Origin: Strigamia acuminata
Lineage: Eukaryota
Length of the DNA stretch: 64,000 nt
Direction of reading: 5' to 3'
NCBI GenBank assembly: GCA_949358305.1
Contig: OX442314.1
Coordinates: 26,846,001 to 26,910,000 of the forward strand
Part shown: positions 776 to 50,689 of the stretch, piece after piece
How the letters are laid out: each line of letters starts with the position of its first letter
Numbering within the stretch: position 1 is the stretch's first letter
Position numbers and translations under genes: made by a program
The notes under the pieces: model-generated
The model's input: the letters and a program-made list of their open reading frames with translations, nothing else
Told to the model about the DNA's origin: nothing
Database searches by the model: none

Positions 776-926
776 ATGATATGTAATTGCATCCCTAAGT
801 ACCCAATTCACTTTAAGCGACGATTTGACAGAACCAAATAATCGCATAAAATGAGGGATACCTTTATTTGCATTTTGAAATAACAGATTTTCTTACTAAA
901 TTGATAAACAAATAAAACATGCTTAC

Positions 927-1415
927 TTGATGTGCTTCTACAAGCTCCAAGTTGTTTAGCATACTTGAATCTAGCCACAACTGAGTGTAATTAAAAGTCT
1001 TGGTAGCACTCTTTATAATCCCTTTCACTGCATTCCCACAATCTAAAAGATCCTCTATGCCACTTTTTATTGGTCGCCAATATGGAGCCAAAGTTGCTGT
1101 ATCTAATCCTGCCAACATTAAGCCAGCTATTTTTAGTTCTTTCGTGTCTTTATATTCAATCTCAACTTTAATTGGGTTAGTCAAGTAGTGTTGCACTCTT
1201 CGGTATGTCTGATAACAACAAATGGTCAAGCAAAGCGTTACTGCAACCAACCATGAAATGCGAACTGCAACGGATTTCTGTTTGTCCAATAATTTATTCA
1301 ATATCGGCAGGGATGTCTTCTCGATTGAACTTGCAATTTCTTTTCTGCAGAGAAGCCGAATGCGATTTTTTTTCATATTGATAATTCTTAAATTTTCGTT
1401 ACGTCTCATAATCAT
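927..1415 (-). CDS. DEG/ENaC-like gene A, exon 1 (cytoplasmic N-terminus, TM1, start of extracellular domain); the rest of the gene lies left of the window
   Basis: TM1 (ISWLVAVTLCLTICCYQTY) followed by the ENaC-like post-TM1 segment YLTNPIKVEI; donor CAA|GTAAGC after 927; close paralog of exons 22929-23411 and 46738-47196. Confidence 0.8.
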
Positions 1416-3286
1416 GGTGCTTTTGTAAGTATTGAATTTTTTTTCAGTTTTTTAAATTGTTTTCTGGTAGAAACGCGTTAATTCCACACTGATCTGAAAG
1501 TCTAGTTAGGGAATTTCCTATTAATTAAAACTTGCGTTGATTTTTTTACATCTTTGTAATTAATTTTTTTTTGAAATCTTAATATTTCTAAAAGTTACTG
1601 GCCTTACCCTAAAGCCGCCGCTGACAACGTGCTTCAAATTGTTCGATGAAGTTATTTGTTGTGATAAATCCAGAGCACTTGTCAGTCCAGTTCTATAGCT
1701 TGAAAATAAACACGCATTGGGTAAATTGTGTGTATGCGTATAGGATGTCAGCCGAAGTGTCCCAAGCGGAGAGAATTAATAGATGTTGCTATGGGCTTGT
1801 TGTTGAATGTTTGGTAAGGCGTAATGTTGCATAAAAATGATATTAAAATGTCGTTAATTAAATATTCGAGACAAGCTATTTAATGGCTTTCTTGTTTACA
1901 ACTTTACAGTTTTATGACTGAAAAATTATCAACATTAAAATTAAAAAGGAAGTTTCTTAATGACATGAATTTCCTTTGGCACAAAATAGCTATCAGTAAG
2001 TAAAAACTCGATGAGAATAAAGAGTGAGTTTGAAACTTTACTACAACCTTGACTGTGTTTAAACTTATCACCAACTGCTTTTTTCGCAGTGTGAATTTAT
2101 TAACACAGAGTAACAACAGCAAAACTGTAACCGATTAACAATAAACGTAAACTTAAAACTATCAAAAATATATTTTACAGTTCACTTATTGCATTCCACA
2201 ATGTATGGCATTCCGCAGAATTAAGTATATTATTTATTTGTACCGGACATACAATAATGCATTGTATAATACAATTGAAAAAATTCATTAGAAAATTTTT
2301 TTTTTCGATTTAAAATGCATTTTGCACTTTAATCGCAGGTATTGGATCACTATAAAACATGCCAAAATGCAGGTATACTTACTTCAAATAATTTTATAAA
2401 AAGATGTAGCCAGTACTGAAGCGTTTTTGACAAGGGAGTTAACCATTTTTTCGCCAGGTGGCAATAGTATCAAAGTACTTTCCAGCTGGAGTGCGTGGTT
2501 CGCAGCGAGATCAACAGGCCGAAATGGTAAATTGTATAACGAATTTACTAAACTGTAGGCCTACTAAAAAATAATTGAAATAATTTAATATTTAGTCACA
2601 TAGATGTCTGAGAAGTATCAATTCTCATACGACATTCAACCAAACGGTTGAAACGATGTGTTAAAATGCGCCGAGGTAAAACCGATTAGTATCAATAAAT
2701 GATTTTTTTTTACATTTTATTTTCTTTATTTCTTTATCTTGTATTAAGATCATACGTGACAACTAAGATGAATCTTTGAACGACAGCAGAATAACAACGA
2801 TGAAGGGGACTGATGTTACATGATTAACAGATTTTGAGTTTTAAAGGTACAATTTAATAATTCCGCGATGTGATTTACGTTAGTATTATTTAATTTCAAA
2901 TTAATGTGAGTATGCAAATTCTTTGTGTTAAAAAAACAAGCGATTTGCGACCGTGGATGTATTTATTGGCATCTCAATTCAATTTAAAAAAAACCTAAAT
3001 TATTTATTATCCACCATATCTATTTGTCCAGCCCCCATTATTGTTAATTGATCACATTAAATTTTTTTAAACTGTTTTTAACGTTTTGTACATGTTTATC
3101 TGTCGTTTTTGTCATGTTTGTGACGTTTTTATCCCGTTTGTGACGTTTTCACGGTATTATGACGTATACCAGATGTTTTGACAATGTCTTTCTTAGCTTA
3201 ATCAGGGCCGGCACCAATTCCGTAAATCGCCGATGACTGCCTAGCTCTAAAACGGGCCCAGCATCTTAATGAACCCGGGCGTTTAA

Positions 3287-4093: not shown

Positions 4094-5230
4094 GTTTAGA
4101 GAAACGATACTTATTACGGAGTACTTAGCATCCAAATAATTTAATTCTTACATGTTGAAGAAGGTTTAAAAGGAATGAAATTAACGATTTGGTGAAGGAC
4201 TTATTTTGGGTACGAAATGGGATGTAACTCTTGTTTCGAAGTCGTAGACACCCTGAAAACATTTTTTAATTGCAAAAGAAAGTTTTGCTTTGATTAAATG
4301 GTTTATTGAAATATCATTTTTTTCTTTTGTTGTGTACTTTCCAAAAGAACCATAATTGAGAAAAGGACATTGGCTTTTATGCACATTTTACAGTTGTAGT
4401 CATGGCGAGAAAATATAGAACTATAACTTAGAAGCAGTTGACTATTGAAAGCTGTAGCGTTTTTGTTTAACAACTCAACTATTTTTTAATCAGGTGGCAA
4501 TAGCAGCAATGTACTAGCCAAAATGGTAAATTGTATAACGGTAAAAAGAAAGTGTATTTAAAAAAGTGTAAATGATAAAATACTGCAATATTTAGCCACA
4601 TACAGTAGGTGTCTGATGTAATTTCAAGCCTCGCACCACATTAAACTAATGGGTTCAAATGAAAATGATAATACTAAAATGCGCCAGGTTAAAACCGATT
4701 AGTATCAATAAATTACTTGTATAACATCAACAAATAAATGATGTTATTTATGGCTTGTCCAATATATGTACCTTAAATCAGTACTTTTAAAGAAAATTCC
4801 GCCAGGGGGCGCCCCCTACTATGGGCTACCGGTCCCTGGCATAACCAGTCCAATTTTTACTGACCACAGGTCAACACACGTTTTTGCATCGATCCGAGAA
4901 AAAGTTTGTTTCTACTCCCTTTTTTCTTCGTAATCGCTGTTTATTTTCGGTAAGATTGTATTTATTGTTTTTGTTTTAACGATTTTTGCATTTCTATTAA
5001 CTTTTCGCGCTCCGATGCTCATAAAATCGCGATATATCGTGTTCGGAGACGCGTGGCCCGTGTAGGCCTAACCGTTATAAAATTTTTTATTTTTTTCAAT
5101 CATTCGTTCTTCCGACGTTTCTCGTTCGGCGGACGTACGGCCGACGTTTTTTTCGTCATTTTTACCGAAATTTCCTTCGTTTTTCATCTGATTTTTTAAA
5201 CAAAAAGTTTTTTATTCAGTTTTTTTCGAG

Positions 5231-8200
5231 ATGGCACAAGCTGCGATTAATCTGAGATCCAGAAGGGCTACTAGTAAGTCTAATCGGAAGAATGCACGTG
5301 GTAAGACGGTGCCGCCACCTGTTTCCAGCCCGGACTTGTCGTTTCAAGACGAGGAAGACGAATCTGACGGCGATTTGATCATTTCGGATCAAGTCGGTGA
5401 CGTAGACGTTACATCTCGCGACAATTTTACATTGTCTAAGCAAATGTTAGACGATATTGTTAGAAACGCCGTCGACGACGCGCTTTCTAAGGACCAGACC
5501 CGAAATTCGGTTCCCACTTGGGAGGATTTAGCCGGGTCTTCGGTCAACCTTTTACCCAAAAATAATCCTGGGTAAGTAAATGCATCTAATAATAGATTGC
5601 GGGATTTATTTTTCTTTTTAATCTGAAAAAATTTTATTTTTTCCCCAGCCACTCTGATAGTGGTCTGGACAAAGATTTTCAGGCCTGCCGTAGCAGCAGT
5701 GTCCGCCATTTTGCTCCTGATCCGACGGATGGAGATTTTTTCGACCGAGATTCGCGATCACGTCACTCAGACGATTCTCTACGCGATTTTTTCGATTCGC
5801 CGCCGCACACAGATTTCGACGACAATTGTGATGGCGATTACGATGGAGGTTTTGAGGTTCCGACCTGGGGAGACGAGGTTGAAAAACCTTTTCTGTCGGA
5901 TGGTGCTGCTGCTATGATTGAAAAGCAGCTCACCGCTAAATTCTCAGTTAGCTTGCGCTCTTCCCTGATCAGACAATTCCCAATTCCTTCGCGCCAGGTC
6001 CCTTTCTTGCGGCCTGCTAAACTCGATGCAGATATCGAGAGTTATGTTAAGATTAGGTCCACCACCTTCTGTGCTCCACGCGAGAAGCTGTTCAAGGAAT
6101 TGACCGTTACAGCAATGAAAACTGCAGCGGTTGCAGCTTCTGTCTTCGACCGAGAATTTAATAACCGCCCGCTGAATCGTACGGAATCCTTAACTGCGAT
6201 GCAGGCTATATTTTTTCAGATTCAGTCGGTCGTTAATAAACTTAACGACGAAAGAAGGCGTAATGTGGTTCTCGGTTTGGCTGGACGGAATGGTATTAAC
6301 ATTGCCTCTTCATTCAAGGAAAGTCGTCATGAATATCTTTTTGAAAACCGGTTTAGCGAAATTTTCAGTAAGAAACTACCTTTCTTCCCAGATAAAATTT
6401 TTAATTAATTAATTTATTTAAATTTTTCTAAATTTCCAGAAAAACAATCTGAGGAAATTAGCGCCTTAGACAAAATGCGGCCACGCCAAAGATTTGATCG
6501 AGCTGGCGGTCGTCATCTCCAGCACAACAGTGGAAATCGAACCCAGCCGTACCAAAGACCTGTTAATTACTTCGACAATAGTCAACGCGATTATCATAGG
6601 AACAGTTTCCCGAGTTCCTCTCACAACAACAGGGGATTCAAAAAACCGGCACCTCGCGGTCGAGGAGGTTCTCGAGGCCGAGGAGCAGACAAACCTGGTG
6701 AGTTGGCCTCTACACCTCCAGATTTGTCCCTTTTTTCTTCTCCCTCGGTTCCCTTGAATACTTCAAAAACCCTCCAATTGACGGAAATGGTGTTTAAACT
6801 TTCCGACCCCCCTTCTGGTCGTTTAGCTTTATGCTTTCAAAATTGGCAGTCCATCTCTTCGGACGATTGGATTCTTGAGACTGTCAGGGGTTATTGCTTG
6901 GAATTTGAATCGGATCCGATTCAAGTCCCATTTTCTGATCCGCTTTTGTCCCAAGAGGCTTCTCATCTCATCAATGAAGAAGTAGTCAAGATGGTAGAGA
7001 AAGGAGCGGCTTACCCGGTAGAACCAGTACCCGGACAGATTGTTAGTTTCTTGTTTTTGGTTCCAAAGAAAGGTGGCGGTTTTAGACCGATCCTTAATCT
7101 CAAACCCTTGAATGCCCATATTAAATACCAACATTTTAAAATGGAAGGAATTCACACCGCCCTCGCCTTAGTCGGTCCCGGTTTCTGGATGATTAAAATA
7201 GACTTATCTGATGCCTATTTTTCTGTTTCAATCGATAAAAGGTTCCGTAAATACCTTCGGTTTTTATGGCAAGGAGTTCTATATGAACTGGGAGTTTTAC
7301 CTTTCGGACTGGGTCCCGCCCCTTATGTCTTTACCAAACTTTGTAGGGTTATTGCTGGTCTATTGAGGTATTTGCACTTTTTATTGGCGGTCTTCATTGA
7401 CGATTGGTTCTTCTGTTCTAAAGATAGGGAGCTCCTCATCTCACAACGTGATTTCTTTCTTGGTCTCATTCGAAATCTGGGGTTTAATACTAATTTCAAA
7501 AAATCTATTTTAGAACCTCAACAGAAACTTTCTTTTCTGGGTTTTGATATCGACACAATCAACATGACCGTGACACTTCCCACCGAACGAATTAAAAACA
7601 TTCAGGTCTCCATTAAACATTTATTGGATAGTACCCGAATATCGGTTAGAGATCTAGCTTCAGTGATTGGCAAATTAAATGCCACCACTCTTGCGATTTC
7701 CTCCGCTCCCCTCCATTACAGGGGGTTGCAGCAACTAAAAACCTTCTTTTTGCGTCGAGGATCTTACGAATCTAAATGTTTCATCACCGCAGAATCTCGC
7801 GCTGAGCTCAGTTGGTGGTTGCGTAACTTAACTTTATGCAATGGTCGGTCTTTGGTTCCTAAATCGTTAGTTATGATTTTAGAGACAGATGCATCTCTCG
7901 GAGGTTGGGGTGCAGTTGCAAACGGAATTAGCATTGGTGGTCCATGGAATGGAATTTATAAGAAGAAACACATCAATGTTTTAGAGTTAATTGCTGCTTT
8001 CTGGGGTCTTAAAGCTTTTGCTCGTGATATAAATGGGTCCATAGTTAAAATTAAAATGGATAATACATCCGCCATTGCCGCTATCAACAACCTGGGTAGC
8101 CCGCGTTCTCCCGAACTTACAGCAGTTGCACAGGATCTTTGGTCCTGGGCGATGGAAAGGGACATCACAGTTATTGCCGAGCATATTCCGGGCACGGAAA

Positions 8201-8841
8201 ACTGCCTGGCTGATGCAGCTTCCCGCGGAAATATTTTTGATTCCGGGGACTGGAAGTTAGATTCGGATATTTTTTCGGCTATTAGTTGCAAATGGGGCCC
8301 ATTTAGTTTTGATCTTTTTGCTTCCCTTAATAACTTTCAACTGAAACCTTACTTTAGTTGGAGGCCGGATCCGTCTGCTTTGGCATTCAATGCCCTCACT
8401 CAAGATTGGGGCAAGGAAGTTCCATATGCTTTCCCCCCTTTCTCTTTAATCTCTGCTTGTTTACAAAAATTAAAGGATTCTTCTCCTTCTCGACAGGAAC
8501 TCGTTCTAATCGCCCCAGTTTGGCCAGCCCAACCCTGGTTTCCGATGCTGTGGAAGTTTTCAGCAGCGCCTCCTCTCCTTCTTCCTTCATTTCCACATCT
8601 CATCCTCAACCCGCTGGAAGAATCACATCCACTGGTGCTGAATGGTTCACTCCGTCTAGCCGCTTGGAGGCTATCTTCGCTCAGTTCCAAGAGGGAGAAT
8701 TATCAGAAGGAGCTGTTAAGTTGCTGGGGGACTCCTGGAAAAGCTCTTCTTGCAAGACCTATGAGCGAGCTTGGCAACGATGGCTTTCTTGGGCTCAGGG
8801 AAAGGATTTGGACCCTTTTCGCCCCACTCCGGTTACCCTAG
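5231..8841 (+). CDS. DIRS-a Gag-Pol; predicted splice join(5231..5571,5649..6367,6440..8841), 1153 aa: Gag, RT, RNase H, Dam-like methyltransferase-like domain
   Basis: RT motifs FLVPKKGGGFRPILNLK, IDLSDAYF, LPFGL, VFIDD; RNase H ETDASLGGWG, HINVLEL, MDN, NCLADAASR; DLFAS...YAFPPF motifs typical of the DIRS MT domain. Two GT-AG introns restore a single frame. The domains are certain; the splicing is inferred. Confidence 0.85.
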
Positions 8842-9632
8842 CAAATTTTTTAGTTTCTCTTTTCGACTCCGGTCTAGCTTATTCTTCAATTAGCGTGCAT
8901 CGGTCCGCAATTTCTCAAACGCTTTGCATCAGCGGTTCAGAGCCTCTGGGCTCTCATCCTTTAGTTTGTAGGATTATGAAAGCTATTCTTCTGTCTAAAC
9001 CACCTCAGCCAAGATATTCTTATATTTGGCATGTTGGCCCAGTTTTGTTGTATCTCAAAAGCATCGTATTAACACTAAATTCTTCAAAATCACTAGTTAA
9101 TCTGAAGACGGTTGGTATTTTGGCTCTTTGCCTGGCCGGTAGGGCTTCAGATATTTGTCTGCTATCTTCAGACATCGTTTTTCTAGAATCCTCTTGTTCT
9201 ATCCCGATACTCTCCTCTCGGAAATCTGGATCAACCCTCCCATTCAAAATAAACTCCTTTTCGGAACCATCTCTCTGCCCAGTTGCAGCGCTTCGTTTTT
9301 ATTTAGACTTTTCTAAAGGTTTTAGAGGCTCTAACAAACCCCTCTTCCTAGCTGCTTCTCGTCCTTTTGGACCTGTCTCCCCTGATACCATCGCTAGATG
9401 GATCAAAACCGTGTTAGATAACTCCGGCATTGACACCTCTGTTTTTAAAGCGCACTCAACTCGGGCTGCAGCTACTTCTTTTGCCTACTCGAGAGGTGTC
9501 GGCCTCTCTCACATAATGAAATCAGCCGATTGGTCAACGGCACAAATTTTCTTTAAGCATTATAACAAACCCATTAATGTAATCTCTGAAGAATTCGCCA
9601 ATACTGTGTTAAGTGGCTACGAATTGCCATAA
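8358..9632 (+). CDS. DIRS-a tyrosine recombinase, overlapping the pol 3' end; true start uncertain
   Basis: Catalytic-type motifs GRASD (R), LCPV, HSTR (HxxR), ADW, and HY (Y). Confidence 0.9.
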   Translation: MEAGSVCFGIQCPHSRLGQGSSICFPPFLFNLCLFTKIKGFFSFSTGTRSNRPSLASPTLVSDAVEVFSSASSPSSFISTSHPQPAGRITSTGAEWFTPSSRLEAIFAQFQEGELSEGAVKLLGDSWKSSSCKTYERAWQRWLSWAQGKDLDPFRPTPVTLANFLVSLFDSGLAYSSISVHRSAISQTLCISGSEPLGSHPLVCRIMKAILLSKPPQPRYSYIWHVGPVLLYLKSIVLTLNSSKSLVNLKTVGILALCLAGRASDICLLSSDIVFLESSCSIPILSSRKSGSTLPFKINSFSEPSLCPVAALRFYLDFSKGFRGSNKPLFLAASRPFGPVSPDTIARWIKTVLDNSGIDTSVFKAHSTRAAATSFAYSRGVGLSHIMKSADWSTAQIFFKHYNKPINVISEEFANTVLSGYELP

Positions 9633-9727
9633 ATAACATCATTTATTTGTTGATGTTATACAAGTCTAAATTTTGCGAATTTATGAGGCAAAATATTACT
9701 TGTATGAATAACAAATAAATGATGTTA
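9626..9727. other. DIRS-a internal complementary region (ICR)
   Basis: First half is the reverse complement of the left terminus, second half the reverse complement of the right terminus, joined at AGT. Confidence 0.95.
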
Positions 9728-10983
9728 CTCTCCCACCCGTTATGCAGACCTCACCCTGTAACATTTGTATTTGTTATTTGGTCTAAATAAATGATTTATG
9801 TTTTTATTTTCAATAAACAGCAATTTTTATTTTCTCTTCAGTCACGAATTAGGAGAAGATTGAAGATATAAACAATGAAGAAATCGGCTCATTCGATTTA
9901 CATTTTTTCTCTTTAAGCTGTATCTTTTGACATTAAAGGAGAAAGAAATAATTTTCAATAATAATCTTGTATGTTTAACTTTCTTAACTAGTCTGATTAT
10001 TTATAAAAAATTGGACTGGTTATGCCAGGGACCGGTAGCCCATAGTAGGGGGCGCCCCCTGGCGGAATTTTCTTTAAAAGTACTGATTTAAGGTACATAT
10101 ATTGGACAAGCCATAAATAACATCATTTATTTGTTATTCATACAAGTAATATTTTGCCTCATAAATTCGCAAAATTTAGACTTTCTTCTCTTTAATTTTC
10201 TTTTATTTATTCACTTATTTATTTATTACTTGTTAGGTTGTTACATGACTACTAAAATGAACCGATATACAACAACGATGAAAGAGACGGACGATACATA
10301 GTAAACAGATATTGACTTTTAAAGGTACGATTTTACAATTATGCGATGTGATTTCAGTCTTGCAACAAAGTATCGTTTAATTACAAGTTCAAATTCTTTG
10401 GAGTACGTTAAAACAAGCGATTTTCAATCGTGGTATTATCGGTATTTTAACAAACCATTTATTGGTATCATTATCTGTTAAAGTGCATTTATTTTTATTT
10501 TTATATTGTTATATGTATAGACTTCTACTAAAGTAAACCAACTAATACGATAACCTGAATATGCTGATGCAGAGTATAACTAATTTCAAGAATTGAAGTG
10601 GGTATTTTTATTCAGTTAAAGATACGAAAAGAAGTTTGTGTATTAGACAATTGATACACTGCAAAATGTAGAGAAATACACTAGGAACCAGCGTTTGGTG
10701 GGTCACAAAAGCAATTTTTTTTAACTTGTAGAGGAGGTTGAACAACATGTCACAGTTGTACAAATAAATAAGTAAGTAAGTAGTAAAGGAAATCAAAAGG
10801 AGAAACAAAACATTTTTTGATGATGGGTTGACATTTTCTAGCTAGTCAATATTAAGTATTGCTATAAAAATTCATTGCGCTGGGGATAACGTAGGTTGCT
10901 AAAATGTTCGAGTGTCTTTGCATTAATCTGCAGAATTAGATTTAGAACTCCAAATATACCACAATTGATATAATACCTGGTAC

Positions 10984-13900
10984 TTAAGAAAAATAATTTT
11001 TAACAGTTGTGTAGCAGTTTTGAAACAACTCTGGTATGATGAGCAATGATAGACCAAACAATAAACCAAAGGCATTTGCCAAATCACAGAAAAGAGCTTC
11101 AAAGCTGTATTTAAGAATTTCAACGTATTGCTCGATTAAATTTGTAGCTGGCATTATTAAAACAATAGATACAGCTGATGCATTAGGATGCTGAAAATAA
11201 AGGTTTGTTTGGTGAATAACTTTCTTGCAAGTAGGCCGGCAGTCACATTCTCCTTTTGTGCGGACATTCAGAGACAAATAAATGAATTTTGCCAAGACTT
11301 CTTTAGCTTCTGATGCAGACTTGCATGTGTTTGTGAATGTGTTATTGGTAAATGGTAACCTAGTCGATAATTCAAATTAAAATAATATAATTCAATATGT
11401 CATGCGACTGCTAATATACCGGCACGAGATTAATTCGAATAACTTGTCTTGAAAGCATTTGTCTTGGCATTGTATATATTCTTCTTCCCTTTCAATACAC
11501 GGGCGTGATTTCAAATTCAGTGAAATTTTCTGTAAGTGTAGAGAATTGGTTAAATTACTCTTAAGTGTTCTTTTCATGTTATGCGATTTTACATTACAAC
11601 AAGTAGTTAAACACTAATTTAATTTATAGCTACTGTATTCAGGTTTTTTTTGGGAGGTGGAGGATAATATGAGTAAAAAAATTGGCGGGGGAATGTATCG
11701 TCCTGGGTAAGGTTTAACCTCGGCATCCAATCCAAACAGGAAACACAAGAGATTCTGGTTTTTCTAAATAATACAATCTTAATATCAAGATATTTAGATT
11801 GTTGCCTAATCATGAGTTGTAGTGTTGGAATTAATCTATAAAAAATGGAAATTATTTGTCATATAAGTATAATATATTTTACTTCGAAAGATGATATTTG
11901 CATTATTGACATGGTAGAGAAATCGATGTTCCGTCGACTTTTAAGAATAGATTGGATTTTAGCTCCAGGTGGACGAAGGTACAACTGCAAATTTAAATTT
12001 TTAAAAAATAAAAAAAAACTTGAAGCAACCCGATAATACGAGACTTTCATTATTTATACAGCATGTACCGTAGTAATGTTCTATACAATATTATAGTATA
12101 GATTTGAGAGAACCACATTATGCTGTGGCGTAGCAAGAAGTCAATGGGCCCGTAATAAAGTTGGGTTTGATGGGCCTTTTATCACAGATGTAGCTTACAC
12201 ACCAGAAATATTTTTCGGTACTTACTGTACAGGGTCACTTTAAAACGTTCATAGGCCCTAGGCATTTGTGTGAAGTTTTGACCTTTTCTTTTGCGAATCT
12301 TTTGCATTAATCTAGAAAGTAACATTAATGCTCCCCCCCCCCCCATTTGAATTCCTGCAACGGTAGCATAAAATCTTGAGTTGTGACTTGTTCAAATCGG
12401 GTTGTTTCGACTTAACCAAGTTTGGCAAAAGAGCTTAATCATTTACCATGTTTACATGTACTCACTTATCCAGATAAGTGAAAATGCGAATATTACTTTT
12501 GTGGAAAACTGCATGCGTTTACAAAGAATCAGTTTTCTAACAAAGGTGACGTCATAAGACGTTTTTAACTCTTTGTTAACCTTGCGCATTAATCTTCCAC
12601 AATGCACTGTGCAGAAACAACATGTCACAGCATTGTTGTGACGTTAGCTTTTCTAGATAAGTAATGAGTGGGTGTTTACATTGCAAATGGCAATGCGCAA
12701 AACACCCAAAATCTACCTCAAACAAGTGGATTTTAGTTATCCAGATAAGTTTGACTTTTCTGGAAAACTGATTTGTTTACATGATCAGTTTTCCAGAAAA
12801 GTAAATTTTGCATTTTTACTTATCTAGATAAGTGAGTACATGTAAACATGGTAATTGACGGTGTGTTGTCGACCGTTCATATCGACGACGATTTGACCCG
12901 AGCTGATATTTTTGTTGCGATAAAGAATCGTTCTGTTATCTTACCTGGCCCAATCCATCAGAACAGTCATTATCATTAATCTTTTTTTTATTTATAAGAG
13001 CAATAAAGAATGCAGAGGTAGCTCCAGCGTACTTTAGAGGCTCTAAAACAAAATAAAATGTATCTTCAATTCTTTATTTTATATTATTTTTATAACTTTC
13101 TCTGTACCGATAGTATAGTCCAAGCATGTTCCCGAATGCAGTTGTAAGTCATTGATACTGTACGTGTCATCTGTTGAACTTAACCCGAGTATCTGGAATA
13201 TTGTGAATTCCAGCATTAATTATAATCTACTGAACCTGAAATAGATAGCATAAACAAAATAGCAAAAAAAAAAATCGTATTCTGCCTCCAACTGCAGTGG
13301 TTTTGGAACTTGGATGCATACTACAGTAGTAATGTGACTGAAACTGACAAAATTGAAATATTTTTACTCAGTTATTTGTTCACTTTAAACACTTTTATGT
13401 TTTAATGTGATTTAAATTCCTTCAGGTTCAGTTATTCAGTTTATGGTTCCAATAAGCAATAGCAATTGGCACACGGAAACACAAATACTCAGCAAGCTAT
13501 ACTCAAAACCACCACAACGTTGACCTATTTCAGCCGGTTTACGCCTAACTGTGTACTGTGTTCTACTACGTGGAAAAGTAGTTTTGTGCCTTTGACAATG
13601 TTGGTAATCGATTACAATGTCTGGAGTTCTTTACAAATATGGTGTTATGAGCCACTTTTTTGTGCCACTACACCAGTGATACGGCTCGAACAATAGGTCA
13701 ACGTTGTGGTGGGTTTGAGTATAAGAATAAACATGAATAACACTTACCTCTGGAACATATTTCATTAAGAGTTTATTCAATTGAGGCTTTTGATATTTCC
13801 ATAATGTTTCGAGCGATGGTTTCTTATCACTGTTCATTAGATCAATGAAATGAATTTTGCATGGATCTTTCATAATCTTCTTTGCATATCGTTCTTTGTA

Positions 13901-16900
13901 TACGGTCATTAGTTTGCCATCGTTGCAGGCAATTATATTAGGCATGTAAATTGTATCGTTTTCTTTAACTTCAACTACGACTTTGATTGGTTCGCTGTAG
14001 TATAGCTGTATTTTCGTTGCAGTTAAATATACGGCAAGTATGGTATTTGTCAATAACACAATTAAACGCACGAAACGACCAATCGGTGGCATTTTATGTG
14101 AAGTATTGTGGCTTATTTTAGACATTACTTTCTCATGTATCTTCGCTATTTTACTTTTCAGATTTCTGTTTGATTGACGAAGAAGCTGAGAACTGTAGCT
14201 TCTAATTTTCTCGTGCAGTCGCTTAATCAGTGCTTGTCCTATTTCTACAAAGGATAACAATGATAATCCCAATGAAAATCCCAAATTTCCGCCAAAGTCT
14301 ACTAGCAATGCGATTATGTCGTAGTCAGGCGTTTCAGTCATGACTATGAATGTTGTATCAGGTTGTTTCATTTCGATGACAACTGTAGCATTATTGGGTG
14401 TTATCGCTAAGGCTACTTCCGTTATGTATATTTGCTTCGTGCATGGTCTCAAGCAACCACAATCCAATGTCGCTTTTGTTGATAATACAGTTTTGAATGT
14501 GTTGCCATGAATTTTAGCAACAATGGTTTCATTTTTTACCTCGCTGCAATCCTTAATTTTATTGTTAAAATCCATATACGGTAATCTGAAATTTAAAAAC
14601 GCTTTATTTATATCAGCAGTAAGAAGAAAATGTGGGCTTTTTAGATTTTAAAGGTAGATTTCAAGTCTGATAAACCTGACTAATAGTCAATATTTTGACT
14701 AACCGGCATTCAGGTTTCTCTTTCCGAGCCAAACAGTCTTCGTAACACTTTATACTATCTTTTACGTTTGAGTTGCATCCAGGGTGATGTGATGGTAGGA
14801 AATTGTACTGGAAATTAAAATTTTAGTTACTTTTTATTCTTGTGCAATCGAAGTCCAAAAATTTTGTATAGAACACAAAGGCAATGTCTACTGCCAGGGT
14901 AAAATGACTTGTTCTAAATCATTCTACTGTTCTCAATTTAGCAACAAATTTTTAGTGACTGAGAAACTTTGTGACGATTCTACCTTTACAAGATAATTAT
15001 ATCTTTGAGATAACTAAAACCTACCGAAATAAGCTATAAACTACATGTGTGCGTGCCAAGTGAAAATACAATGCGAATAACTTACAAGAATATCGATAAA
15101 TAGTATTGTTTATTAACAAAAAGTCCCGGTTCTAAATACACGTGAAATAACGGGTGGCAACGTCTGGCTGGATGTCGTGGGCGGGCCGAGGGATAGAGCT
15201 GGCTTTGCGGCATCGTCACAAAGAATGTTTTTGTGGGTGCGAAGGGTTCTTCGCACCGCTAAGCTACAACCTAAAGTTTATAGATTACTAAAATCGATGT
15301 AACGAGAATTTACCAATTCTCATGTGCTACGGAAAACATAATAAAGAAGGAATTACTAATTAGATATAATTCGAATGTCGGCGGGGACCATCACAATGGC
15401 GCTCAACCATTGCGGAAGGAAACTTCCATCCGCCATAAAATGCCTTACGACCGAAAGATTGCGTAATCCATGACTGGGTATTTGTTTAGTACGATGTTAT
15501 CGCTTCGGTGGTACCAACCACCAGGTAAATAATTGTACGGAATTACCAGAAGCCGATACAGTTTGTCGGGACGCCAGCGAGGAACAAGCGTTTGTTCCCA
15601 ACAAGACCGAGTATTTGTTTAAGTGCGACGAATCGCTTCGGCGGTACCATCCGCCGGGCAAAACATTGTGGGGTTTACCAATTTCCAAGTAGTTGTTTAA
15701 CGCAAGTATTACAATACTGCTCACGGGCTACCAACCCGGCGCTTCGCAGGCTGTCGTTTCAAGATCCATTTACCGTACTATTTCATACGGACGGATCTTC
15801 ATCAAAATGCAACAAATTATTGAAGCAAGACAACGAATCACCCTGGAGAGTCCCCAATCGTGCTGCAAACGCAAGTCACGAAACGTTGGGGGGATTTCCC
15901 GATTTTCGATAAAAGATACAAGACCAGATACAAAAACCGAAAGAACCGGAGGTCCGGTGGTCAACCGGAGCTCATATAGCTCTTCAGAACAGAAGGATTA
16001 GCGGTAGCCAATCGGCTACCAGAATCCACGGATTTCCAAGTCAATGTTGGGATTAGCGAGTCCGGACCTTGCGGAAGACTAGGTCCGAAGGAGTCCAATT
16101 GGCTCCTTACTTCCGGCAAGTATAACTTAGTAATTATTATTGGAATATTGATTCTATGGAATCAATATTCTTCATAATATTTGCTGAGTTTATTCTATTA
16201 AATAAACAGCAAAACATACTCTAATTTAAAGTATTTCTAACTCATATTTTGAATTACGCGCTAGTTTTATATTAGCGCCATCTAGTGTGAACTTTCGTGT
16301 TTATACGGTCACAACTTTCTTGCAAGAAGAACGGGTTATAGTCATTTTTACAAAAAAAAAACCCATGTTAGCGATTACGTTTTAGCGACAATATATGGTA
16401 ACTTTCCCATAGCAATCGCTAAGTTTTAGCGACGCGACACGATTTATCGCGACAACAATGTACTGCTCAAAAAATGGTTTTGCATAAAAAAACCAGTAAG
16501 GTTAGGTTCGGGGGGGTCAAGCGGGGGCGCAGCCCCCCTCCCTTGTTAGCCCTTCTTAGGAATTAAACCTAAAATATATGTAGTCGCGGTTTCCAAAGTT
16601 GCGGTAGATTCCGCGAGCATGTGCCCTTAAATACAGTGTAAGAACGGATAAAATAAGAAAAAAGTAAATAAACAACTAGATTTTTCCCTGTCAATAGACA
16701 TTTGCAAACCCATATGAGATCAAATTATTGAAACCCCCAAATTAATTGAAAAATTACCAAAATCTATTTAATTGCACACTAATTATTTACACACTATTTT
16801 TATTTATCGGACCCCCCATTCGTAGTTAACAATCCCCCGAAAATATTTATTTCTACACTGTCTTGTAAACGTCTTGTAAACGTTTCCGGAGAAAAAAATG

Positions 16901-23411: not shown

Positions 23412-24072
23412 AATCTTTTTGTGAGTATTGAGTTGCTTTTCAGTTTTTTAATTTGTTTTCTGTCATAAATATGGTAATTGAGGGTTCATCAAGTTAAATG
23501 TATAATTATGGAAAAGTTTGATCTTTTCCATAATTATTCGTTCAACTCGGTGATCAAAAAAATCTTCAAGCAGGGACCAGCCGCTTTCACCAAAAGGCCT
23601 TCTTGGTGAAGCAAACCATTTTTGAGGACTGTGACTCGTATGCAATGGAGGATCTAGAAGGGTAGCCAAGGGGGCTATGGCCATCCTTCTAAAAGTTTAT
23701 AAAAAATAGAAGAAAAATAATAATTTTTCTTAAATTTTACTGCCCTAAGTTTTAGGGGCCATTCATTGCAAAATATTTTATAAAAATATTTCTGGGAAGG
23801 GAAGAAGTGCATATACCATAGTTGACAGGACACTGTTGCTGAAACATTTGTAGTGAGTTAGTCATGGTTTGTATTGTTTTTATCCAAAGTTTGACAATTT
23901 GTATTCTGTTAGAATAAGCAATGGTTTTGCAATGTGCTGTTAAGTATATGCCAACAGCATACTTTTTCAGATTCTTATCGTATTCAGTTAGTATTCATTT
24001 GTAACGTATAAATTATCATTTGTATTGGTTTGCAACTAACCCCCTATGCAGTGTCCTGCCAACTTGATAGTA

Positions 24073-24995
24073 CTAATGGGTGGCCCACATAAAACCGGCC
24101 CGACAATACAGATAGGGTTAGGAAAGGTGACTCAAAAAAATGTATACACACACAAAATTAAATGTACATGAATTATTAGCTGTGACCAGTGTTGTTTAAT
24201 TAATGTTTCTAGTGCAGTTTTTTCCGCTCTTTCGTTTGGTGTTTAGTTTTTGACGATCCGAGTTTTCGTTCTCGAGATATTTGCTTCTTTGATCAATTTT
24301 TTTCGAAATTTCCAAGTTTGATGGCACTAGTCAGCTTGAATGTTAGATTTTGTGGTAATTTTGTGGATTTCTTCAGCAGTACCGGTAACGGTACATGTAC
24401 ACAGTACTTTCCCCAAAATACCGCAATTTTTGTGACTGGTACAGTACCTGTAACACTTTTTTGGTACCATACAACTTTAATTTAGCAAAATCTGAAAAAT
24501 GTAGCAAAATCTCACTAAATCAAGCAAAATCTCATAAAATCAAGCACAATCTTACAAAATCTCACAAAATCAAGCACAATCTTACAAAATCTCACAAAAT
24601 CAAGCACAATCTTACAAAATCTCACAAAATCAAGCACAATCTTACAAAATCGCACAAAATCTTGTACTAGTACATCTGAAGAAATCCACAAAAGTACCAT
24701 TGAAGAGATTCAAAAAGTACCACAAAATTCAGGAATGGCTAGTGCAATCAAACTTGGCGAATTCGGACAATGATTGATTAAAATCGCAAATATCTCGAGA
24801 ACAAAAGCTCGGATCGTCAAAAGCTAAACACCAAATGAAAGAGCGGAAAAAACTGCATTAGAAAAGTTAATTAAACAACCCTGCCCACAGCTAATGATTT
24901 ATGTATATTTAAGTTTGTGCTTGTATACATTTTTTTCAGACACCCTTCGTAACCCTCCTTGTATTGTTGGTCGCTTTTATGTGGGCCACCCGGTA
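24073..24995. mobile_element. Decayed Tc1/mariner-type foldback element with ~250-bp TIRs and an internal 30-bp tandem repeat (24520-24663)
   Basis: GGGTGGCCCACATAAAA ... TTTTATGTGGGCCACCC; inverted arms contain CTCGAGATATTTGC and TTTTTTCCGCTCTTTC. Confidence 0.8.
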
Positions 24996-39500: not shown

Positions 39501-42500
39501 CGTTTTTGACACGAACCGTTTCGAGAAGCAAAATTGAATATTTTGCTAAGTTATGACGCAAAATATGAATTATATAAAGAGGCAATAAATGTTGTTAACT
39601 ATAGGCTTGTCCAATATTATTAAATAAAAACTAGTACTTTAAAGAAAAAATACCAGGGGGAGGGCTTGACCCTTACCCCCGGTCTAGCCCGAGACCTGAT
39701 TCCTAGTCCAATTTTAAGGAACTGAGAAATAAAAACCACAGGAATTCAGAAATAAAACTTTATTTACTGAAAAAGCATCGAAAAGGCATGACGGATCGAC
39801 TTATTGGCGATCTAAAAATTCAATAAAATAAAATAAATAAATGTTGTAAGGGTGGCAAAAAACTTTCAACAAGGAAGCATAGAAAACAAACAGAAGGGTG
39901 GGAAATAACAACATTTATTGCCTCTTTATATAATTCATATTTTGCGTCATAACTTAGCAAAATATTCAATTATATTACAGCTAAGGCAATAAATGTTGTT
40001 AACTATAGGCTCTTTGTAGCCTCCACTAACCACTAAGATAAAATCACTCAAAATCTTTTCGACTGGGTGATTATAAAACATAAAAGACCGAAGCAGAGGA
40101 CCAATCCGCCGCTCGGAAGATATAAGAATTATTGTGCCCGGGACTGGACATAATTCCTTGTCCTCAAAATAAGGTAGAACGAAAGGAGTGGATAAAGATG
40201 ATTTTCTCCTCCCTAGAAGGGGAAAAAACACACAAATTGGTAGAGAAAACTACCTTGGTCGACACGAGTTTAAGGTTATGGAAGCTTTCCCTGCCAAGGG
40301 GAGGGCTAAAAGACGTAGGCATTCTTAATTCTAATTCAATCTCTCGAAACATCACGTTACCATTATGAAGAACAAAATTCTCAGTTTGATATTTGATATT
40401 TTACGAGGAGTAAACGCCCATTTACTGCTACTCTGGTAGAGCGACTATTTTGGTATTTAAGATTCATATGTCACGTCGTTAAGTTCAACTAGAAACAAAG
40501 GTTTAGAAGAACTAGATTTTCAGGGGTGTGTATTAACCAGGCCAGGACCGTGACAATGCTCTTCGCAATTATCGTGTCTAAAAATTAAATCTGTGGTCCG
40601 TGTAATTCTTCCCAAGTTAAGACGTTAAAGTTTAGGCTAATGTTTCATTAATGATATTACACATTCCGATGAATCATCTAGGTATGCCAAATCGAGGGTC
40701 ATCAGGTTGTTACAAACTTGGATTATTTTAATTACAAACCTGTGTGTAGGATGATAATAAAAACCAAACCGAAAAGATAAGACATTGTGTCAAGACGAAT
40801 AAAATCATGTGGATGCAAAAGGACCTACATCTTCCCATATTACATAAGTATAAAATAGGCGGGACCTTTATTTGTTAACAAAGTTTTGGTATATATTATT
40901 AACAAATGTGTTAGATGGTGAACCTCGTAATAAAAATGTGCTTCCAAGCACGATTCTTCCAAACTCAACTCTGATTTCTTATGAGGTATGGCGTGGGAAA
41001 AATTAGGTGGAAAGTAAAGATGACAAATCGCTTAAATAGAAGGCATAAATATACGGTTGACTTCAGTGACAATTGAAAAAACGTTTATTCAGATTAGGAG
41101 GTAGCTGGCACTGCAGAGTACGGAATGCTGAGATTATAAAGATGGCAATAGTTTAAAAGAGGGTCAAATCTTCTCCCTCCTTTCTTTCGTCGTCTTCCGA
41201 GAGGGCATTATGTATATTTTATAAATAAATTTTATATAATAGAAAAAAGACGGCGTCTCGAATCTGGGAAAGAGAAACATCTCGAGAGTGGGACCCGAAC
41301 CTCGGGTTCATGTGGTAGGTTGTTCCGCCCACTTTATTACACTGAGCTGATATGAACATAATTTCCAATTACATCTCGAGGTGCGTTGTCGATATTTTGA
41401 CAACTAACAAGTAACAAATATACAAACAGATTTTCATCCTAAAAATTAAAATGTAGCAATATTAATCGTGAGGCTCTCTAAGATTTTGCCGTCATGTTAG
41501 TAAAAAATATATATCAACCACCACTTAGTGGTGGGAAAGAAAAACTCTGAATTACCTAGATAAATAACCGGTGTTCCAGAAGAAGGATAAAGTGAGGAAC
41601 AAGTGAAAATTCGGCATGAATTTAACAAATTAAGTAAGGAAAATTAACATGCGAGAAAGGTCATGTTGGATGTGACTCCTCACTTGGCAGAAAAAACTAC
41701 ATCATGAAGCAACCTGACACACAGAAAAAAGATAAAGTTTATTTTGTAAATAGCCATGCAGTTCTTGTTAAATCTCACATTAATCAAAAGTTTCAATTGA
41801 TATTGTAAAAGAGCTTTGTTTTCCTCCACACCAGAGCCTAATCTGATATTTGAGGATGTGGGAAAACTCTAAACGTGCAAAATTCATTTGTTAAAAAGCA
41901 AACATGAATGGTCGAATTTTTCAAAGGACTATTTGCATTCGCATTAGAAAACATTAAAAGATTTGCAATTTAAGTTCATCTTCTAAGAGAAAAGAAAATT
42001 CACCTCCAATTTCTTTCGTCTCACCTTTAAAATAATGTTAACACTAATCAGTAGTAGTGTAAAATAATTTTATTGAACTGTGTAAAGTAAAATAAAATAA
42101 AATAAAATAAAATAAAATAAAAGTCAAATTTGATACGAAAACAGTTTCTCGATTGTTGTACGGCGCTACGCAAATAATATGATTGTCTCGGGCAAGAATG
42201 AAAGCAAAACACTGGTACAGCAAGGTAATGGCAAGTTGCGACAAAAGTTGAGCATGTCGACTATTATATTTGCAAGACAAACAAACATTTGAGGTGATGA
42301 GATCACTATTCTCGTTATCAACTTAGTAGCACAAAAAAACTAGTTGAAGCTCATGGGTACTGACAATATTTGGCCTCCGCTTGTTGGTAAAATAAATAAC
42401 TCAACTTCTGCCTTGAAGCGGGAACATTTCCTTGTTGTGCAGCAACATTCGCAGCCACAACTCATGTGCGCTGTTGAGAGAAAAATCCGAAAACCGGGCA

Positions 42501-45500
42501 AAAAGGTCCCGTTTTGTAGCGGACAAAGCCTCTGCTTTCTAGCGGACAAATTTTCCGCTTTATAACGGGCAAAACCTCCGCTGTGTACGAAAGCTACGTT
42601 CCTGTTCTCTCTCTCCTCTGTTCATGGGCGAAAATTGTCTCCCCTTATCGGTTGACCGGTTAAAAGTCCGGCGAGTTCGACTATCATGCCGGAAACCCTT
42701 CGCGGGATTTATGTTCCTGGGTCGGTCTACTAACGCGAACTGAACTGCTTATTTCTCTAAATTTACAAAAAACAATAAGTTGTTAGTGAAAAAATTTTTT
42801 GAAGCAATAAAAAATTACTGAAAACGTTCAAAAAATTGCCCTTGAAAAGGGATATCTCTATCTGAGTTGCGGATATGCTACACCATATCAGCTTTATGGC
42901 GCTCAAACTTTGTACGACGTTAAAAAGTCTTTCAGTGCTAATCGCGTTCATCATATTCGTACTATTGAAAATTGCTTTGTTGGCATACAACAGCTCTTCC
43001 CTGCTCATAGGGGCGTGTGTTGTTGTGCTGAACGTTTGAAAATCTGGCCAAAATTGAGCCCACGCGAGCAACTATGCCATTCAATCTACGTAAAAAACGT
43101 TCACGCAGAAAATAGATGGCTTGTTACGCACTCCTACGTAGGCTTTCACGTCCTCATCCATCTTATTTCCCCTTTTCAGAAGGGAACTTGACGATTTGGG
43201 CAAGGAAAATGTGCCTTAAAACTGTTAGTTAGGGCAGCTGAAGCCAGTTAACTCAAATTTTTTGACACATTTCCTTCGCGGATGACTCGTGCAGAAGGAC
43301 GCATCATCATTGTGACCGCTGGAATCGACTGAAGAACGGACGGAGTCATCATCAAATGGGATGGTGAATTTGAGACTGAACGAGTTGACTGTTATTCTTG
43401 AACGAAATTCGTTCGATCATCTGAAGTGCCGGAGCCCGACGATTCAAATTTGAACAGTGAAACATCTGACTACAACCAGTCAGCAACCACGTGTGATCAA
43501 TCAAAATCAAATCATGTAGCAAAAAACAAAACTTACGTGATTCTCAGACTGAGCCAAACCCCACTCGTCTCTACGAGATCGAGACATTTTTGGTTGGTCG
43601 GTAGACTCCTCCCGCTGAAGAGGAGCCCCACCTGTCTGGTTATTGAGAAAAGGCCATGAAAATAAGCTTTTCAATTGCTTGGGAAGAAAGTTCCATTTCG
43701 GAGTTAGGCATTTGACTATTCGCAACGTGCGAGACGATTAAGTCGGCCCCAATCAGATTCCGTATACCGTTAAATTCCTCTTTGATTCGTTCAATTTGCT
43801 TCTTTGAAGACAAATGTGGGATGTTGACGATGGATCCAACTAGCAGGGTTCTTATCTGGGCCGAGGTCGAGGACGCGATAGGCTCGTGATGAATCTCGTC
43901 ACGTGTTGAAATCGTTAGTCCTAACGGCGCGCAGGCGGCTACGTGCATTTTCTAACCCTTTTGGCACTTGAAACGAGAAAAACGGACTTCCTACCTCTAG
44001 ATTATACAGGATTCGTATTGAAAAAGGGCAAAAATTATTCAAAATAACTAAAAATTCTAGGGCGCGATGGATTCGTGATGAATGTCAGCACGTGTCTTAG
44101 TGAAGTTAGGCTTAGCGGTGGTCGGGTGACCACGCGTTCTCCGTGCTTTTTCGGAGTTTGAAACATCTTCAGATGACTTCTTACCTCTAACTTTAGTAGG
44201 GCCCATCGTAAATTGGGGGTAGAAGATGTAAAAAAGCAAAAACTATAAAATAACCAAAATTTTTCTTGGACGCGAAAAAACGCGTGCAGAAAGCTTGGCT
44301 AGTAAAATTAGACTAGGGATCAGGTCTCGGGCTAGACCGGGGGTAAGGGTCAAGCCCTCCCCCTGGTATTTTTTCTTTAAAGTACTAGTTTTTATTTAAT
44401 AATATTGGACAAGCCTATAGTTAACAACATTTATTGCCTTAGCTGTAATATAATTAGAAACGATGGCGAATGCAGGCGGAATTTCGGCTAGAATCGAAGC
44501 ACTGGGGAAAGAGAACTACGATGCGTGGAAAGTCCAAATGGAAGCAATTTTGGGGAAGAACGATCTCCTGAAGTACGCGGACGGAACATTGAAGCGACCA
44601 GAAGTTGTGCCAGAAAACAACAACACCAAGAAAGCCGCCGAAATTTGGGACGCGAAGGACAGAAACACGAGATACGATATCTTGCTACACGTAAAGCAGT
44701 CAGAGATTCGATTGTTGAAAAACTGTAAGACCTCAAACGAATTATGGAGAAAATTGGACGAAATTTACGAAGCGAAAGGACCGGCAAATATGGGCATGTT
44801 GCTGAAACAAATTTGCGGAAACAAAATGGCTGAAAACGAAAACGTGCGTGACTATCTGAAGGGATTTTTTGAAGCAGTCGATAAGCTACTCGACATGGAT
44901 ATGGAAATCCATCCGACACTTACTGGGATGCTGCTGTTGCAAAGTTTGCCGAAATCATTCGATACGTTCAAGATCACGATGGAATCGCAAGACACATTGC
45001 CGACGCTGGAAGCGCTAAAAGCTAAAATTATAGCCGCAGCAATTTCTCAAGAGAAAGATAAAGAAGAAGTATCCGACGCAATGATGGCCAAGAAATCGTT
45101 CCAAAAACGGAGGCAACCAAAGAACGGCGACGATGAATCGGATTCCGATGAAAAGCTGACTTTTAAATTTAAATGTCACGGTTGCGGAAAAATCGGACAT
45201 AAAATCGCGGATTGTTGGAGCAAGAATAAGAGGGAAACTGCGTCGAGGGCCGAAAAATTCAGACACGACGCGTATCATTGTGAATGGATGGAAACGGCGA
45301 TGAAATGTGAAGCGCCAAAATCGAAAAGATGGTGTTTGGGCAGCAGTACCAGTTCACACAAACGTTCGGACGAATCGACATTCAAAAACGTTGAAGCATT
45401 GAAGAACCGAAAATTGAATTTGGCCAGTAATGCGAGCACGAAAATCAACGGAAAAGGAACTGTGAAGATCGAAATTGGTCCCGAAAATGACAATTTACAT

Positions 45501-50672: not shown

Positions 50673-50689
50673 TGGCGAGCTAGACAGGA
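50673..50689 (+). promoter_or_regulatory. PBS, probably tRNA-Arg(ACG)
   Basis: TGGCGAGCTAGACAGGA versus the complement of the animal tRNA-Arg(ACG) 3' end as recalled (TGGCGAGCCAGCCAGGA), 2 mismatches. Confidence 0.65.

What the first reader, a model, noticed from the sequence alone, without database searches (positions are those of the whole stretch)
4950..6439. DIRS retrotransposon with spliceosomal introns joining gag to pol
Seen: three separate ORFs become one 1153-aa frame on removing 5572-5648 (GG|GTAAGT...TTTTTTCCCCAG) and 6368-6439 (CA|GTAAGA...AATTTCCAG). Both are short, AT-rich and GT-AG. A probable 5' UTR intron runs from 4950 to 5219 or 5230. Established: retrotransposons copy through RNA and normally lose introns; Penelope-like elements are the best-known exception. 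Inference: this element must reverse-transcribe unspliced RNA while translating spliced RNA.
Basis: partly seen in the sequence, partly recalled or inferred. Interest (0 to 1): 0.8.

Follow-up and report, generated by a model that had tools for sequence, protein, structure and literature searches.

The report
DIRS retrotransposon with intron-split gag
An intact animal jumping gene of the DIRS type has its structural gene split by two short intron-like segments that its relatives in the same lineage keep, so it likely has to be spliced to make its proteins (predicted to be three, from one alternative splice site) while likely copying only its unspliced RNA; no RNA was seen.

Summary
Observation confirmed. 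A complete DIRS1-like element (4716-10183) has gag split by GT-AG segments 5572-5648 and 6368-6439; removing them gives 1153 aa. Intron 2 is well supported. Removing it restores a gap-free match to a profile of 30 intron-less DIRS Gags (34.6 vs 15.0 bits). A decayed second DIRS in the window (27% Gag identity) has an intron at the same codon and phase but not a multiple of 3, which argues against stop read-through. Sibling genomic copies keep both introns, with third-position-biased exon changes (21 of 32). The 5' UTR intron is unproven.

Added here: the element's best donor (6698, end of gag) and two best acceptors predict Gag-recombinase (8496, 817 aa) and Gag alone (9841, 442 aa); Gag-Pol results if the donor is skipped. 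The recombinase frame has no early ATG. Distant DIRS have intron-less gag (26 of 30), but those with a short recombinase frame often carry a similar donor (22 of 40 vs 1 of 14). Splicing itself was not observed. This scan found spliced DIRS/Ngaro before on other DNA (13 notes). I found no paper on natural DIRS introns; key reviews were unavailable.

The parts
4716..10183 (+). Complete DIRS1-like retrotransposon, begins and ends with CTT
4715..4858 (+). Left terminus / left ITR (4729-4858 is 100% complementary to 10006-10135; 4715-4754 pairs with the left ICR)
   Evidence: pairs I4 and I19
4950..5219 (+). Candidate 5' UTR intron (alternative end 5230); unproven; holds the only upstream ATG (5015)
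   Evidence: the sibling copy keeps YAG at 5219 (C>T at 5217)
5231..5571 (+). gag exon 1 from ATG 5231 (113 codons, basic then acidic)
   Evidence: 8 of 12 listed sibling substitutions at third positions
5572..5648 (+). gag intron 1, 77 nt, phase 2; retention stops translation at once
   Evidence: 2nd best donor, 3rd best acceptor of the element; the only 2 gaps of sibling contig 5592-6338 lie inside it
5649..6367 (+). gag exon 2 (Gag core)
   Evidence: matches DIRS Gag profile; 6 of 6 listed sibling changes synonymous
6368..6439 (+). gag intron 2, 72 nt, phase 1, with in-frame TAA
6440..6697 (+). gag exon 3, ending in an RGG-rich basic tail
6698..6703 (+). Predicted alternative splice donor at the end of gag (CTG|GTGAGT, phase 1), best donor score in the element
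   Evidence: no difference listed at 6696-6704 in two sibling subfamilies (40 of 51 rows shown)
6698..8841 (+). Linker and pol (RT, RNase H, Dam-like methylase), in frame with gag; internal ATG at 6787
   Evidence: RVT_1 1.7e-16, Dam 2.8e-7, RT_RNaseH 0.23
8478..8496 (+). Predicted acceptor (polypyrimidine tract + CAG|G) in frame with the recombinase from donor 6698; predicted Gag-YR 817 aa
   Evidence: 2nd best acceptor
8358..9632 (+). Tyrosine recombinase frame overlapping pol; first Met at residue 207 of 424
   Evidence: (Phage_integrase E 4.7e-4, below the curated cut-off)
9626..9727 (+). Internal complementary region; halves overlap at AAG(T) 9662-9665 (circular junction)
   Evidence: pairs I19 and I7
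9824..9841 (+). Predicted acceptor between ICR and right ITR; from donor 6698 gives Gag alone, 442 aa, on an RNA lacking the ICR
   Evidence: best acceptor; a similar acceptor at 39722 in the second element
10006..10183 (+). Right ITR and right extension
   Evidence: pairs I4 and I7
39532..44455 (-). Second, decayed DIRS of another family (ITR, ICR, gag and YR remnants; no pol match in the tblastn)
42757..42818 (-). Intron of the second element at the same codon and phase as intron 2; 62 nt (64 to the next AG), 18% GC, with a CACTAAC branch-like motif
43470..43536 (-). GT-AG segment of the second element in the place analogous to intron 1; 67 nt, 36% GC, apparently phase 0; homology of position not shown

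Best explanation
This is an intact DIRS1-like retrotransposon whose gag is split by two GT-AG segments that are very likely spliceosomal introns, and it is predicted to make Gag-Pol, Gag-recombinase and Gag by alternative splicing from a donor at the end of gag, while likely reverse-transcribing only unspliced RNA. Shown: anatomy, frames, conservation of intron 2, retention of both introns in genomic sibling copies. Inferred: (1) introns 1 and 2 are removed from every translated RNA, because unspliced RNA stops after 114 codons; (2) donor 6698 unused gives Gag-Pol (1153 aa), joined to 8496 gives Gag-YR (817 aa), joined to 9841 gives Gag (442 aa); (3) the proteins act in trans on a separate pool of unspliced full-length RNA, which is captured before splicing or needs a signal in the 5' introns, so new copies keep the introns.
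For: Profile of 30 intron-less DIRS Gags aligns to the spliced product without a gap across the intron 2 junction: 34.6 bits, against 15.0 unspliced, 16.3 for exon 2 alone and at most 0.3 for 20 shuffles. The second element's Gag match (27% identity) ends on the same Phe codon, followed by A|GT, and its intron is 62 or 64 nt. A Strigamia maritima gene model (P0121, UniRef100_T1J2E4, 55% identical) leaves Gag at the same residue and resumes in RNase H; that is an annotation, not RNA. Sibling contigs keep both introns; two variants align through donor 6368 and diverge 10-20 nt inside the intron; 21 of 32 listed exon substitutions are at third positions of the spliced frame, p 1.9e-4 (partial lists). 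The YR frame has no Met before residue 207, past the weakly matched N-terminal SAM-like region at 131-185. Among non-redundant distant DIRS a donor scoring 4.5 or more lies within 200 nt upstream of pol in 22 of 42 (window element included) against 14 of 294 windows inside pol and 5 of 42 antisense. It is found in 22 of 40 elements with a short YR frame against 1 of 14 whose YR frame is open more than 1 kb further upstream; the Ser after the FPPF motif is AGY (forming a YAG acceptor) in 22 of 23 Ser cases in the first group and 0 of 6 in the second, against 456 AGY to 1526 TCN elsewhere in pol. In 4 of 30 relatives gag and YR are one natural ORF, in 4 gag and pol. DIRS-1 RT works in trans, and a marker intron placed near its 5' end was also found unspliced in cDNA (PMC7192593, passages).
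Against: No spliced junction was observed. Donor 6368 scores weakly in my matrix (0.3, 12th in the element). Acceptor 8496 is not where most relatives have theirs (65 nt versus 13 nt past the start of FPPF, phase 1 versus 0), and I could not test its conservation in close copies; the sibling has a 3-nt deletion at 8486 inside its pyrimidine tract. In the second set of loci alone only 2 of 13 passed the donor threshold (4 of 91 controls). The relatives are related to each other, so the Fisher p-values overstate independence, and the splice matrices are recalled approximations. The linker after 6698 is poorly constrained (1 of 6 changed codons synonymous). A roughly 80% sibling is 10 nt shorter between 6537 and 6615, which breaks the exon 3 frame unless that copy is dead. 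No donor matching 6698 was recognisable in the decayed second element. The two sibling gaps in intron 1 cancel out, so they do not by themselves prove it is non-coding. How unspliced RNA is chosen was not tested.
Confidence: 0.65

Rival explanations
1. Introns 1 and 2 are real and give Gag-Pol, but the recombinase and free Gag are made some other way (ribosomal frameshift from pol into the YR frame, an internal promoter, non-AUG start, or Pol from its own ATG at 6787).
For: Acceptor 8496 is not positionally conserved in distant relatives; YR overlaps pol in the -1 frame; ATG 6787 sits just before the conserved start of Pol; linker poorly constrained.
Against: The best donor and second-best acceptor of 5.4 kb join exactly in the YR frame; donor presence tracks with short YR frames across relatives.
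Confidence: 0.2
2. Intron 2 is not spliced: Gag ends at TAA 6406 and Pol is reached by stop read-through or from a downstream ATG; segment 1 is a frameshift site or a lesion.
For: Intron 2 is 72 nt, in frame, with one stop; its donor scores weakly.
Against: The second element's segment is 62 or 64 nt; the Gag profile is colinear only after removal; sibling copies diverge inside the segment while exon 2 changes are synonymous.
Confidence: 0.05
3. The AT-rich segments are chance insertions or small mobile elements in a dead copy.
For: Distant DIRS have no such segments (26 of 30 with one gag ORF of 300 codons or more).
Against: ITR and ICR arms are 100% complementary and pol and YR are open; segments are shared by sibling subfamilies and by a family at 27% Gag identity.
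Confidence: 0.03
4. The introns persist because the element now moves mainly as DNA (YR excision and reintegration, Crypton-like), so no unspliced RNA has to be copied.
For: It encodes a tyrosine recombinase; Cryptons are intron-bearing YR DNA transposons (recalled; search listings).
Against: RT, RNase H and a perfect ICR are kept; the ICR is required for retrotransposition of DIRS-1 (PMC7192593, abstract and passages).
Confidence: 0.07

Closest known systems
DIRS1-like superfamily (order DIRS; D. discoideum DIRS-1; PMC3266345 passages, PMC7192593 passages)
   Same: ITRs, right extension, split ICR with 3-nt circular junction, NTT ends, gag, RT-RNase H-methylase, overlapping YR.
   Different: gag is split by two introns and runs in frame into pol; YR is predicted to be reached by splicing. 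The main texts of PMC3266345, PMC3783388, PMC9210276, PMC6681497 and PMC4157794 contain no occurrence of 'intron'.
Plant Ty1/Copia alternative splicing (EVD; PMC5580714 abstract) and BARE RNA pools (PMC3735527, search listing only)
   Same: Splicing yields a Gag-only RNA while unspliced RNA is the genome; translated and copied RNAs form separate pools.
   Different: There the unspliced RNA still encodes Gag-Pol; here unspliced RNA would encode only a 114-codon stub, so every protein needs splicing. DDE integrase versus YR.
Penelope-like elements (10.1101/2021.04.23.441226, passages)
   Same: Retroelements that keep introns after retrotransposition; a 5' UTR intron overlapping an internal promoter resembles the 4950-5219 candidate.
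   Different: Unrelated RT clade, GIY-YIG or no endonuclease, pseudo-LTRs.
Retroviral subgenomic mRNAs and Ogre/Tat intron between protease and RT (recalled, not read)
   Same: One pre-mRNA, alternative acceptors, unspliced genome packaged.
   Different: No env; short constitutive host-like introns inside gag.

Membership tests
DIRS1-like retrotransposon | Inverted terminal repeats | tested here: met
   4729-4858 / 10006-10135, 130 nt, 100%
DIRS1-like retrotransposon | ICR complementary to both ends, halves overlapping at a short junction; NTT termini | tested here: met
   9626-9665 vs 4715-4754 and 9662-9727 vs 10118-10183; AAG junction, CTT ends
DIRS1-like retrotransposon | pol with RT, RNase H and Dam-like methylase, no protease or DDE integrase | tested here: met
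   RVT_1 and Dam above cut-off, RNase H weak (E 0.23), no protease or rve hit; 38-45% identity over the length to DIRS-type Pol proteins
DIRS1-like retrotransposon | Tyrosine recombinase ORF overlapping pol | tested here: met
   Phage_integrase E 2.4e-4 to 4.7e-4, below the curated cut-off; R, HxxR and Y motifs visible in the translation (motif labels recalled)
DIRS1-like retrotransposon | gag-like ORF1 | tested here: met
   Spliced exons 2-3 match a profile of 30 DIRS ORF1 proteins, 34.6 bits; no Pfam hit; a single-pair BLAST to P0002 was not significant
DIRS1-like retrotransposon | Placement within DIRS1-like rather than PAT-like on an RT tree | not tested
   No tree built; repeat structure is DIRS1-like
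Ngaro / PAT-like | Split direct repeats (and, for Ngaro, no methylase) | tested here: not met
   Inverted repeats and a Dam domain
U2 spliceosomal intron | GT...AG ends, pyrimidine/AT-rich body, frame restored on removal | tested here: met
   for introns 1 and 2
U2 spliceosomal intron | Position conserved while sequence diverges | tested here: met
   Intron 2: second element and sibling contigs. Intron 1: analogous place only, different phase
U2 spliceosomal intron | Removed from RNA | not testable with these tools
   The two runs available are contigs of unrecorded kind that behave as genomic DNA
Penelope-like element | PLE-type RT, GIY-YIG, pseudo-LTRs | tested here: not met
   DIRS Pol, YR and ITR/ICR instead

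The most novel reading that the evidence does not exclude
A lineage of animal DIRS has gained constitutive host-like introns in gag that make the unspliced genomic RNA untranslatable and fully separate it from the mRNAs, with the introns carrying the signal for copying; this sits on a splice switch (one donor at the gag-pol border, pol as an intron) that is the general, undescribed way DIRS elements express their recombinase.
Probability: 0.35. Interest if true: 0.82.

Novelty: new variant of a known kind. Interest (0 to 1): 0.63.

Why it matters
How DIRS elements express an ATG-less recombinase that overlaps pol, and how they balance Gag, Pol and YR, is not addressed in the DIRS papers I could search. 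This element gives exact junctions to test. It would also add a second kind of retroelement that keeps ordinary short introns through reverse transcription, a natural system for asking how a retroelement picks unspliced RNA and why introns are not purged although an intron-less copy would seem viable (single-ORF gag-pol relatives exist). Practically, ORF-based curation would score such elements as broken.

Tried and rejected
No RNA holder listed; this is no evidence either way. No whole genome is held for the window, so copies could be seen only through contigs of runs X1 and X2 (one study; possibly the window's own source). No joint matching any predicted intron was listed in them (15 of 33 joints shown; the single joint in 6240-6800 is unrelated); contigs drop rare variants, so intron-less copies are not excluded. 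Word-based homolog searches with gag exon 2 found nothing; the full phmmer search found 2 proteins. Viral contigs gave no relative with the single Pol query; the alignment query there did not complete. No close relative of this family turned up among 77 metagenome loci (best 80 of 534 kept) or 27 genome-collection loci (apparently host DNA in bacterial bins); all are 24-43% identical in Pol. Read-through of intron 2 was considered and rejected. An acceptor just before pol ATG 6787 was sought; there is no AG between 6723 and 6825. Literature: 10 searches and term look-ups in 14 papers plus one abstract showed no natural intron in a DIRS element. Poulter and Butler 2015 is not held; Goodwin and Poulter 2001/2004, Poulter and Goodwin 2005 and Repbase reports were not seen, and no supplements were read, so prior mention cannot be excluded. 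Look-ups for earlier notes on this genome or look-alike DNA returned nothing.

Full report
What is there. Window 4716-10183 is a complete DIRS1-like retrotransposon: 130-nt ITRs that are 100% complementary, an ICR (9626-9727) whose halves pair with the two ends and overlap at AAG, and CTT at both termini. Pol carries RT and a Dam-like methylase above Pfam's cut-offs and a weak RNase H match; the recombinase frame 8358-9632 overlaps it and matches Phage_integrase below the cut-off. The host is an animal: the element lies among DEG/ENaC (ASC) gene fragments, and the closest named proteins are from the centipede Strigamia maritima (60% over part of Pol). The host was not identified further.

Segments 5572-5648 (77 nt, 25% GC, phase 2) and 6368-6439 (72 nt, 19% GC, phase 1) are bounded by GTAAG and YAG in exons of 47-50% GC. 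Removing them joins ATG 5231 to stop 8841 in 1153 codons; unspliced, translation ends after 114. Two such segments occur on the sense strand, none on the other, and 3 of 1000 local shuffles reach two (criteria chosen after the fact).

Are they introns? Four DNA-level tests. (a) A profile built from 30 uninterrupted DIRS ORF1 proteins (25 from fetched loci, 5 from protein hits) aligns to exon 2 + exon 3 with no gap at the junction and scores 34.6 bits, against 15.0 for the unspliced reading and at most 0.3 for 20 shuffles. (b) A second, decayed DIRS on the minus strand (39532-44455) shares only 27% identity in Gag, yet its match ends at the same Phe codon, followed by A|GT; the AT-rich segment is 62 nt (64 to the next AG) with a CACTAAC motif, and the reading resumes with similar residues although that copy is broken by stops and frameshifts. 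Because 62 and 64 are not multiples of three, read-through of the in-frame TAA in our intron 2 is an unlikely explanation. It also has a 67-nt GT-AG segment in the place analogous to intron 1, in another phase. (c) A Strigamia gene model (P0121) leaves Gag at the same residue; it is only a prediction. (d) Contigs of runs X1 and X2 (kind not on record; flank coverage and 29-37 kb records suggest DNA) hold a sibling subfamily about 93% identical that keeps intron 1 and the 5' segment: the contig over 5592-6338 has 2 gaps, both in intron 1 (they cancel), and the contig over 4930-5548 has 13 gaps, with no net gap from 5300 on. At intron 2 one contig is identical across it and two variants follow the donor and then diverge 10-20 nt into the intron. 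Of 32 listed exon substitutions 21 are third-position in the spliced frame, and 6 of 6 in exon 2 are synonymous (the tool's lists were cut). The 5' UTR candidate is weaker: moderate donor, acceptors outside the top 15, GC-rich interior, no counterpart seen in the second element.

Scoring every GT and AG in the element with approximate, recalled matrices ranks a donor at 6698, right after Gag's RGG tail, first, and acceptors at 9841 and 8496 first and second. The recombinase frame has no Met until residue 207 of 424. Donor 6698 to 8496 gives an in-frame Gag-YR of 817 aa; to 9841 it gives Gag plus three residues (442 aa) on an RNA without the ICR; unused, it gives the 1153-aa Gag-Pol. I noted this idea before consulting the scan's earlier notes.

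Distant relatives as a control. Of 77 metagenome loci, 57 were usable and 44 non-redundant (plus the window element). A donor scoring 4.5 or more lies within 200 nt upstream of pol in 22 of 42 elements, against 14 of 294 windows inside pol and 5 of 42 antisense. With 27 more loci (104 in all, 71 usable, 57 non-redundant, 54 with enough upstream DNA, window excluded), the donor is present in 22 of 40 elements with a short YR frame but 1 of 14 whose YR frame is open more than 1 kb further upstream. The Ser codon after FPPF is AGY, completing a pyrimidine-rich YAG near where the YR frame opens, in 22 of 23 Ser cases of the first group and 0 of 6 of the second (18 and 10 elements have another residue; background 456 AGY to 1526 TCN). 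Four proteins with fused gag-pol end Gag in RGK and one in KGE, which fits G|GTRAG (DNA not seen). Against: the new loci alone gave 2 of 13; the elements are related, so counts are not independent; our acceptor is 52 nt downstream of theirs and in another phase. In 26 of 30 relatives gag is one ORF of 300 codons or more (4 fused to YR, 4 to pol); of the other four I viewed two, which have a point stop or frameshift without an AT-rich gap. So the gag introns look lineage-specific, probably gained, whereas the pol-skipping splice looks widespread.

Mechanism. Most likely (0.65) one pre-mRNA is spliced at introns 1 and 2 and then alternatively at 6698 to give Gag-Pol, Gag-YR and Gag; the unspliced RNA is untranslatable and serves as the template. 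That needs proteins acting in trans, which is shown for DIRS-1 RT; in the same study a marker intron near the 5' end also appeared unspliced in cDNA, which the authors ascribed to competition between splicing and retrotransposition factors, while one near the 3' end gave the spliced form (PMC7192593, passages). The Gag-Pol mRNA would keep the ICR and could in principle seed intron-less copies; that introns persist across families suggests either selective capture of unspliced RNA or selection for the introns. This step is untested. I put the reality of the two coding introns at about 0.9.

Known versus new. Membership in DIRS1-like is met on all structural features tested. Splicing with an unspliced genome is known for plant Ty1/Copia (PMC5580714, abstract) and intron retention for Penelope-like elements (10.1101/2021.04.23.441226, passages). 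Five DIRS surveys contain no occurrence of 'intron' in their main text, and a phrase search found nothing relevant, but the principal reviews and Repbase entries were not available. This scan holds 13 similar unchecked notes in at least 4 other genomes, one citing RNA reads for the pol-skipping splice; I treat them as leads only. Verdict: real, a new variant of a known kind, interest 0.63, limited by the lack of RNA evidence here.

Noticed in passing
window 39532-44455 (-): Decayed second DIRS with near-perfect termini; its middle (about 42400-40400) shows no pol match and holds several splice-like sites, possibly captured or replaced sequence; its gag start is partly duplicated (about 44190-44070 and 43995-43870). 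It abuts a Ty1/copia gag remnant (44454-46298).
   Followed up: partly
window 49626-62008: Ty3/gypsy element with at least 300 nt of identical terminal repeat (49626 and 61709), gag 50777-52735, pol 52648-57477 and an extra 956-codon ORF (58004-60874) with no Pfam hit.
   Followed up: partly
window 864-1451, 10984-14647, 22866-23447, 30521-35560, 46657-47232 (-): Tandem cluster of DEG/ENaC (ASC) gene copies 61-91% alike; the DIRS element appears to sit between exons of one copy, on the opposite strand.
   Followed up: partly
window 4697-4893, 9622-9818, 10016-10212: Summed contig depth over the termini and ICR is about 50 to 100 times that of the coding region in X1 and X2, suggesting many short derivatives or families sharing the ends.
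   Followed up: no
L001, L025, L031, L054: DIRS elements in which gag and the recombinase form one natural ORF that overlaps the whole of pol.
   Followed up: partly
L003, L008, L010, L011, L040, L057: gag stops 14-29 nt before the donor, so the predicted splice would join the short pol leader, not Gag, to the recombinase.
   Followed up: partly
L078-L104: DIRS retrotransposons in bacterial genome bins, most likely host eukaryote contamination.
   Followed up: no
window 25287-26311, 24476-24681, 546-806: Simple tandem arrays (28-nt and 10-nt units) and several inverted-repeat elements of MITE type (e.g. 33394-34126, 24100-24970).
   Followed up: no
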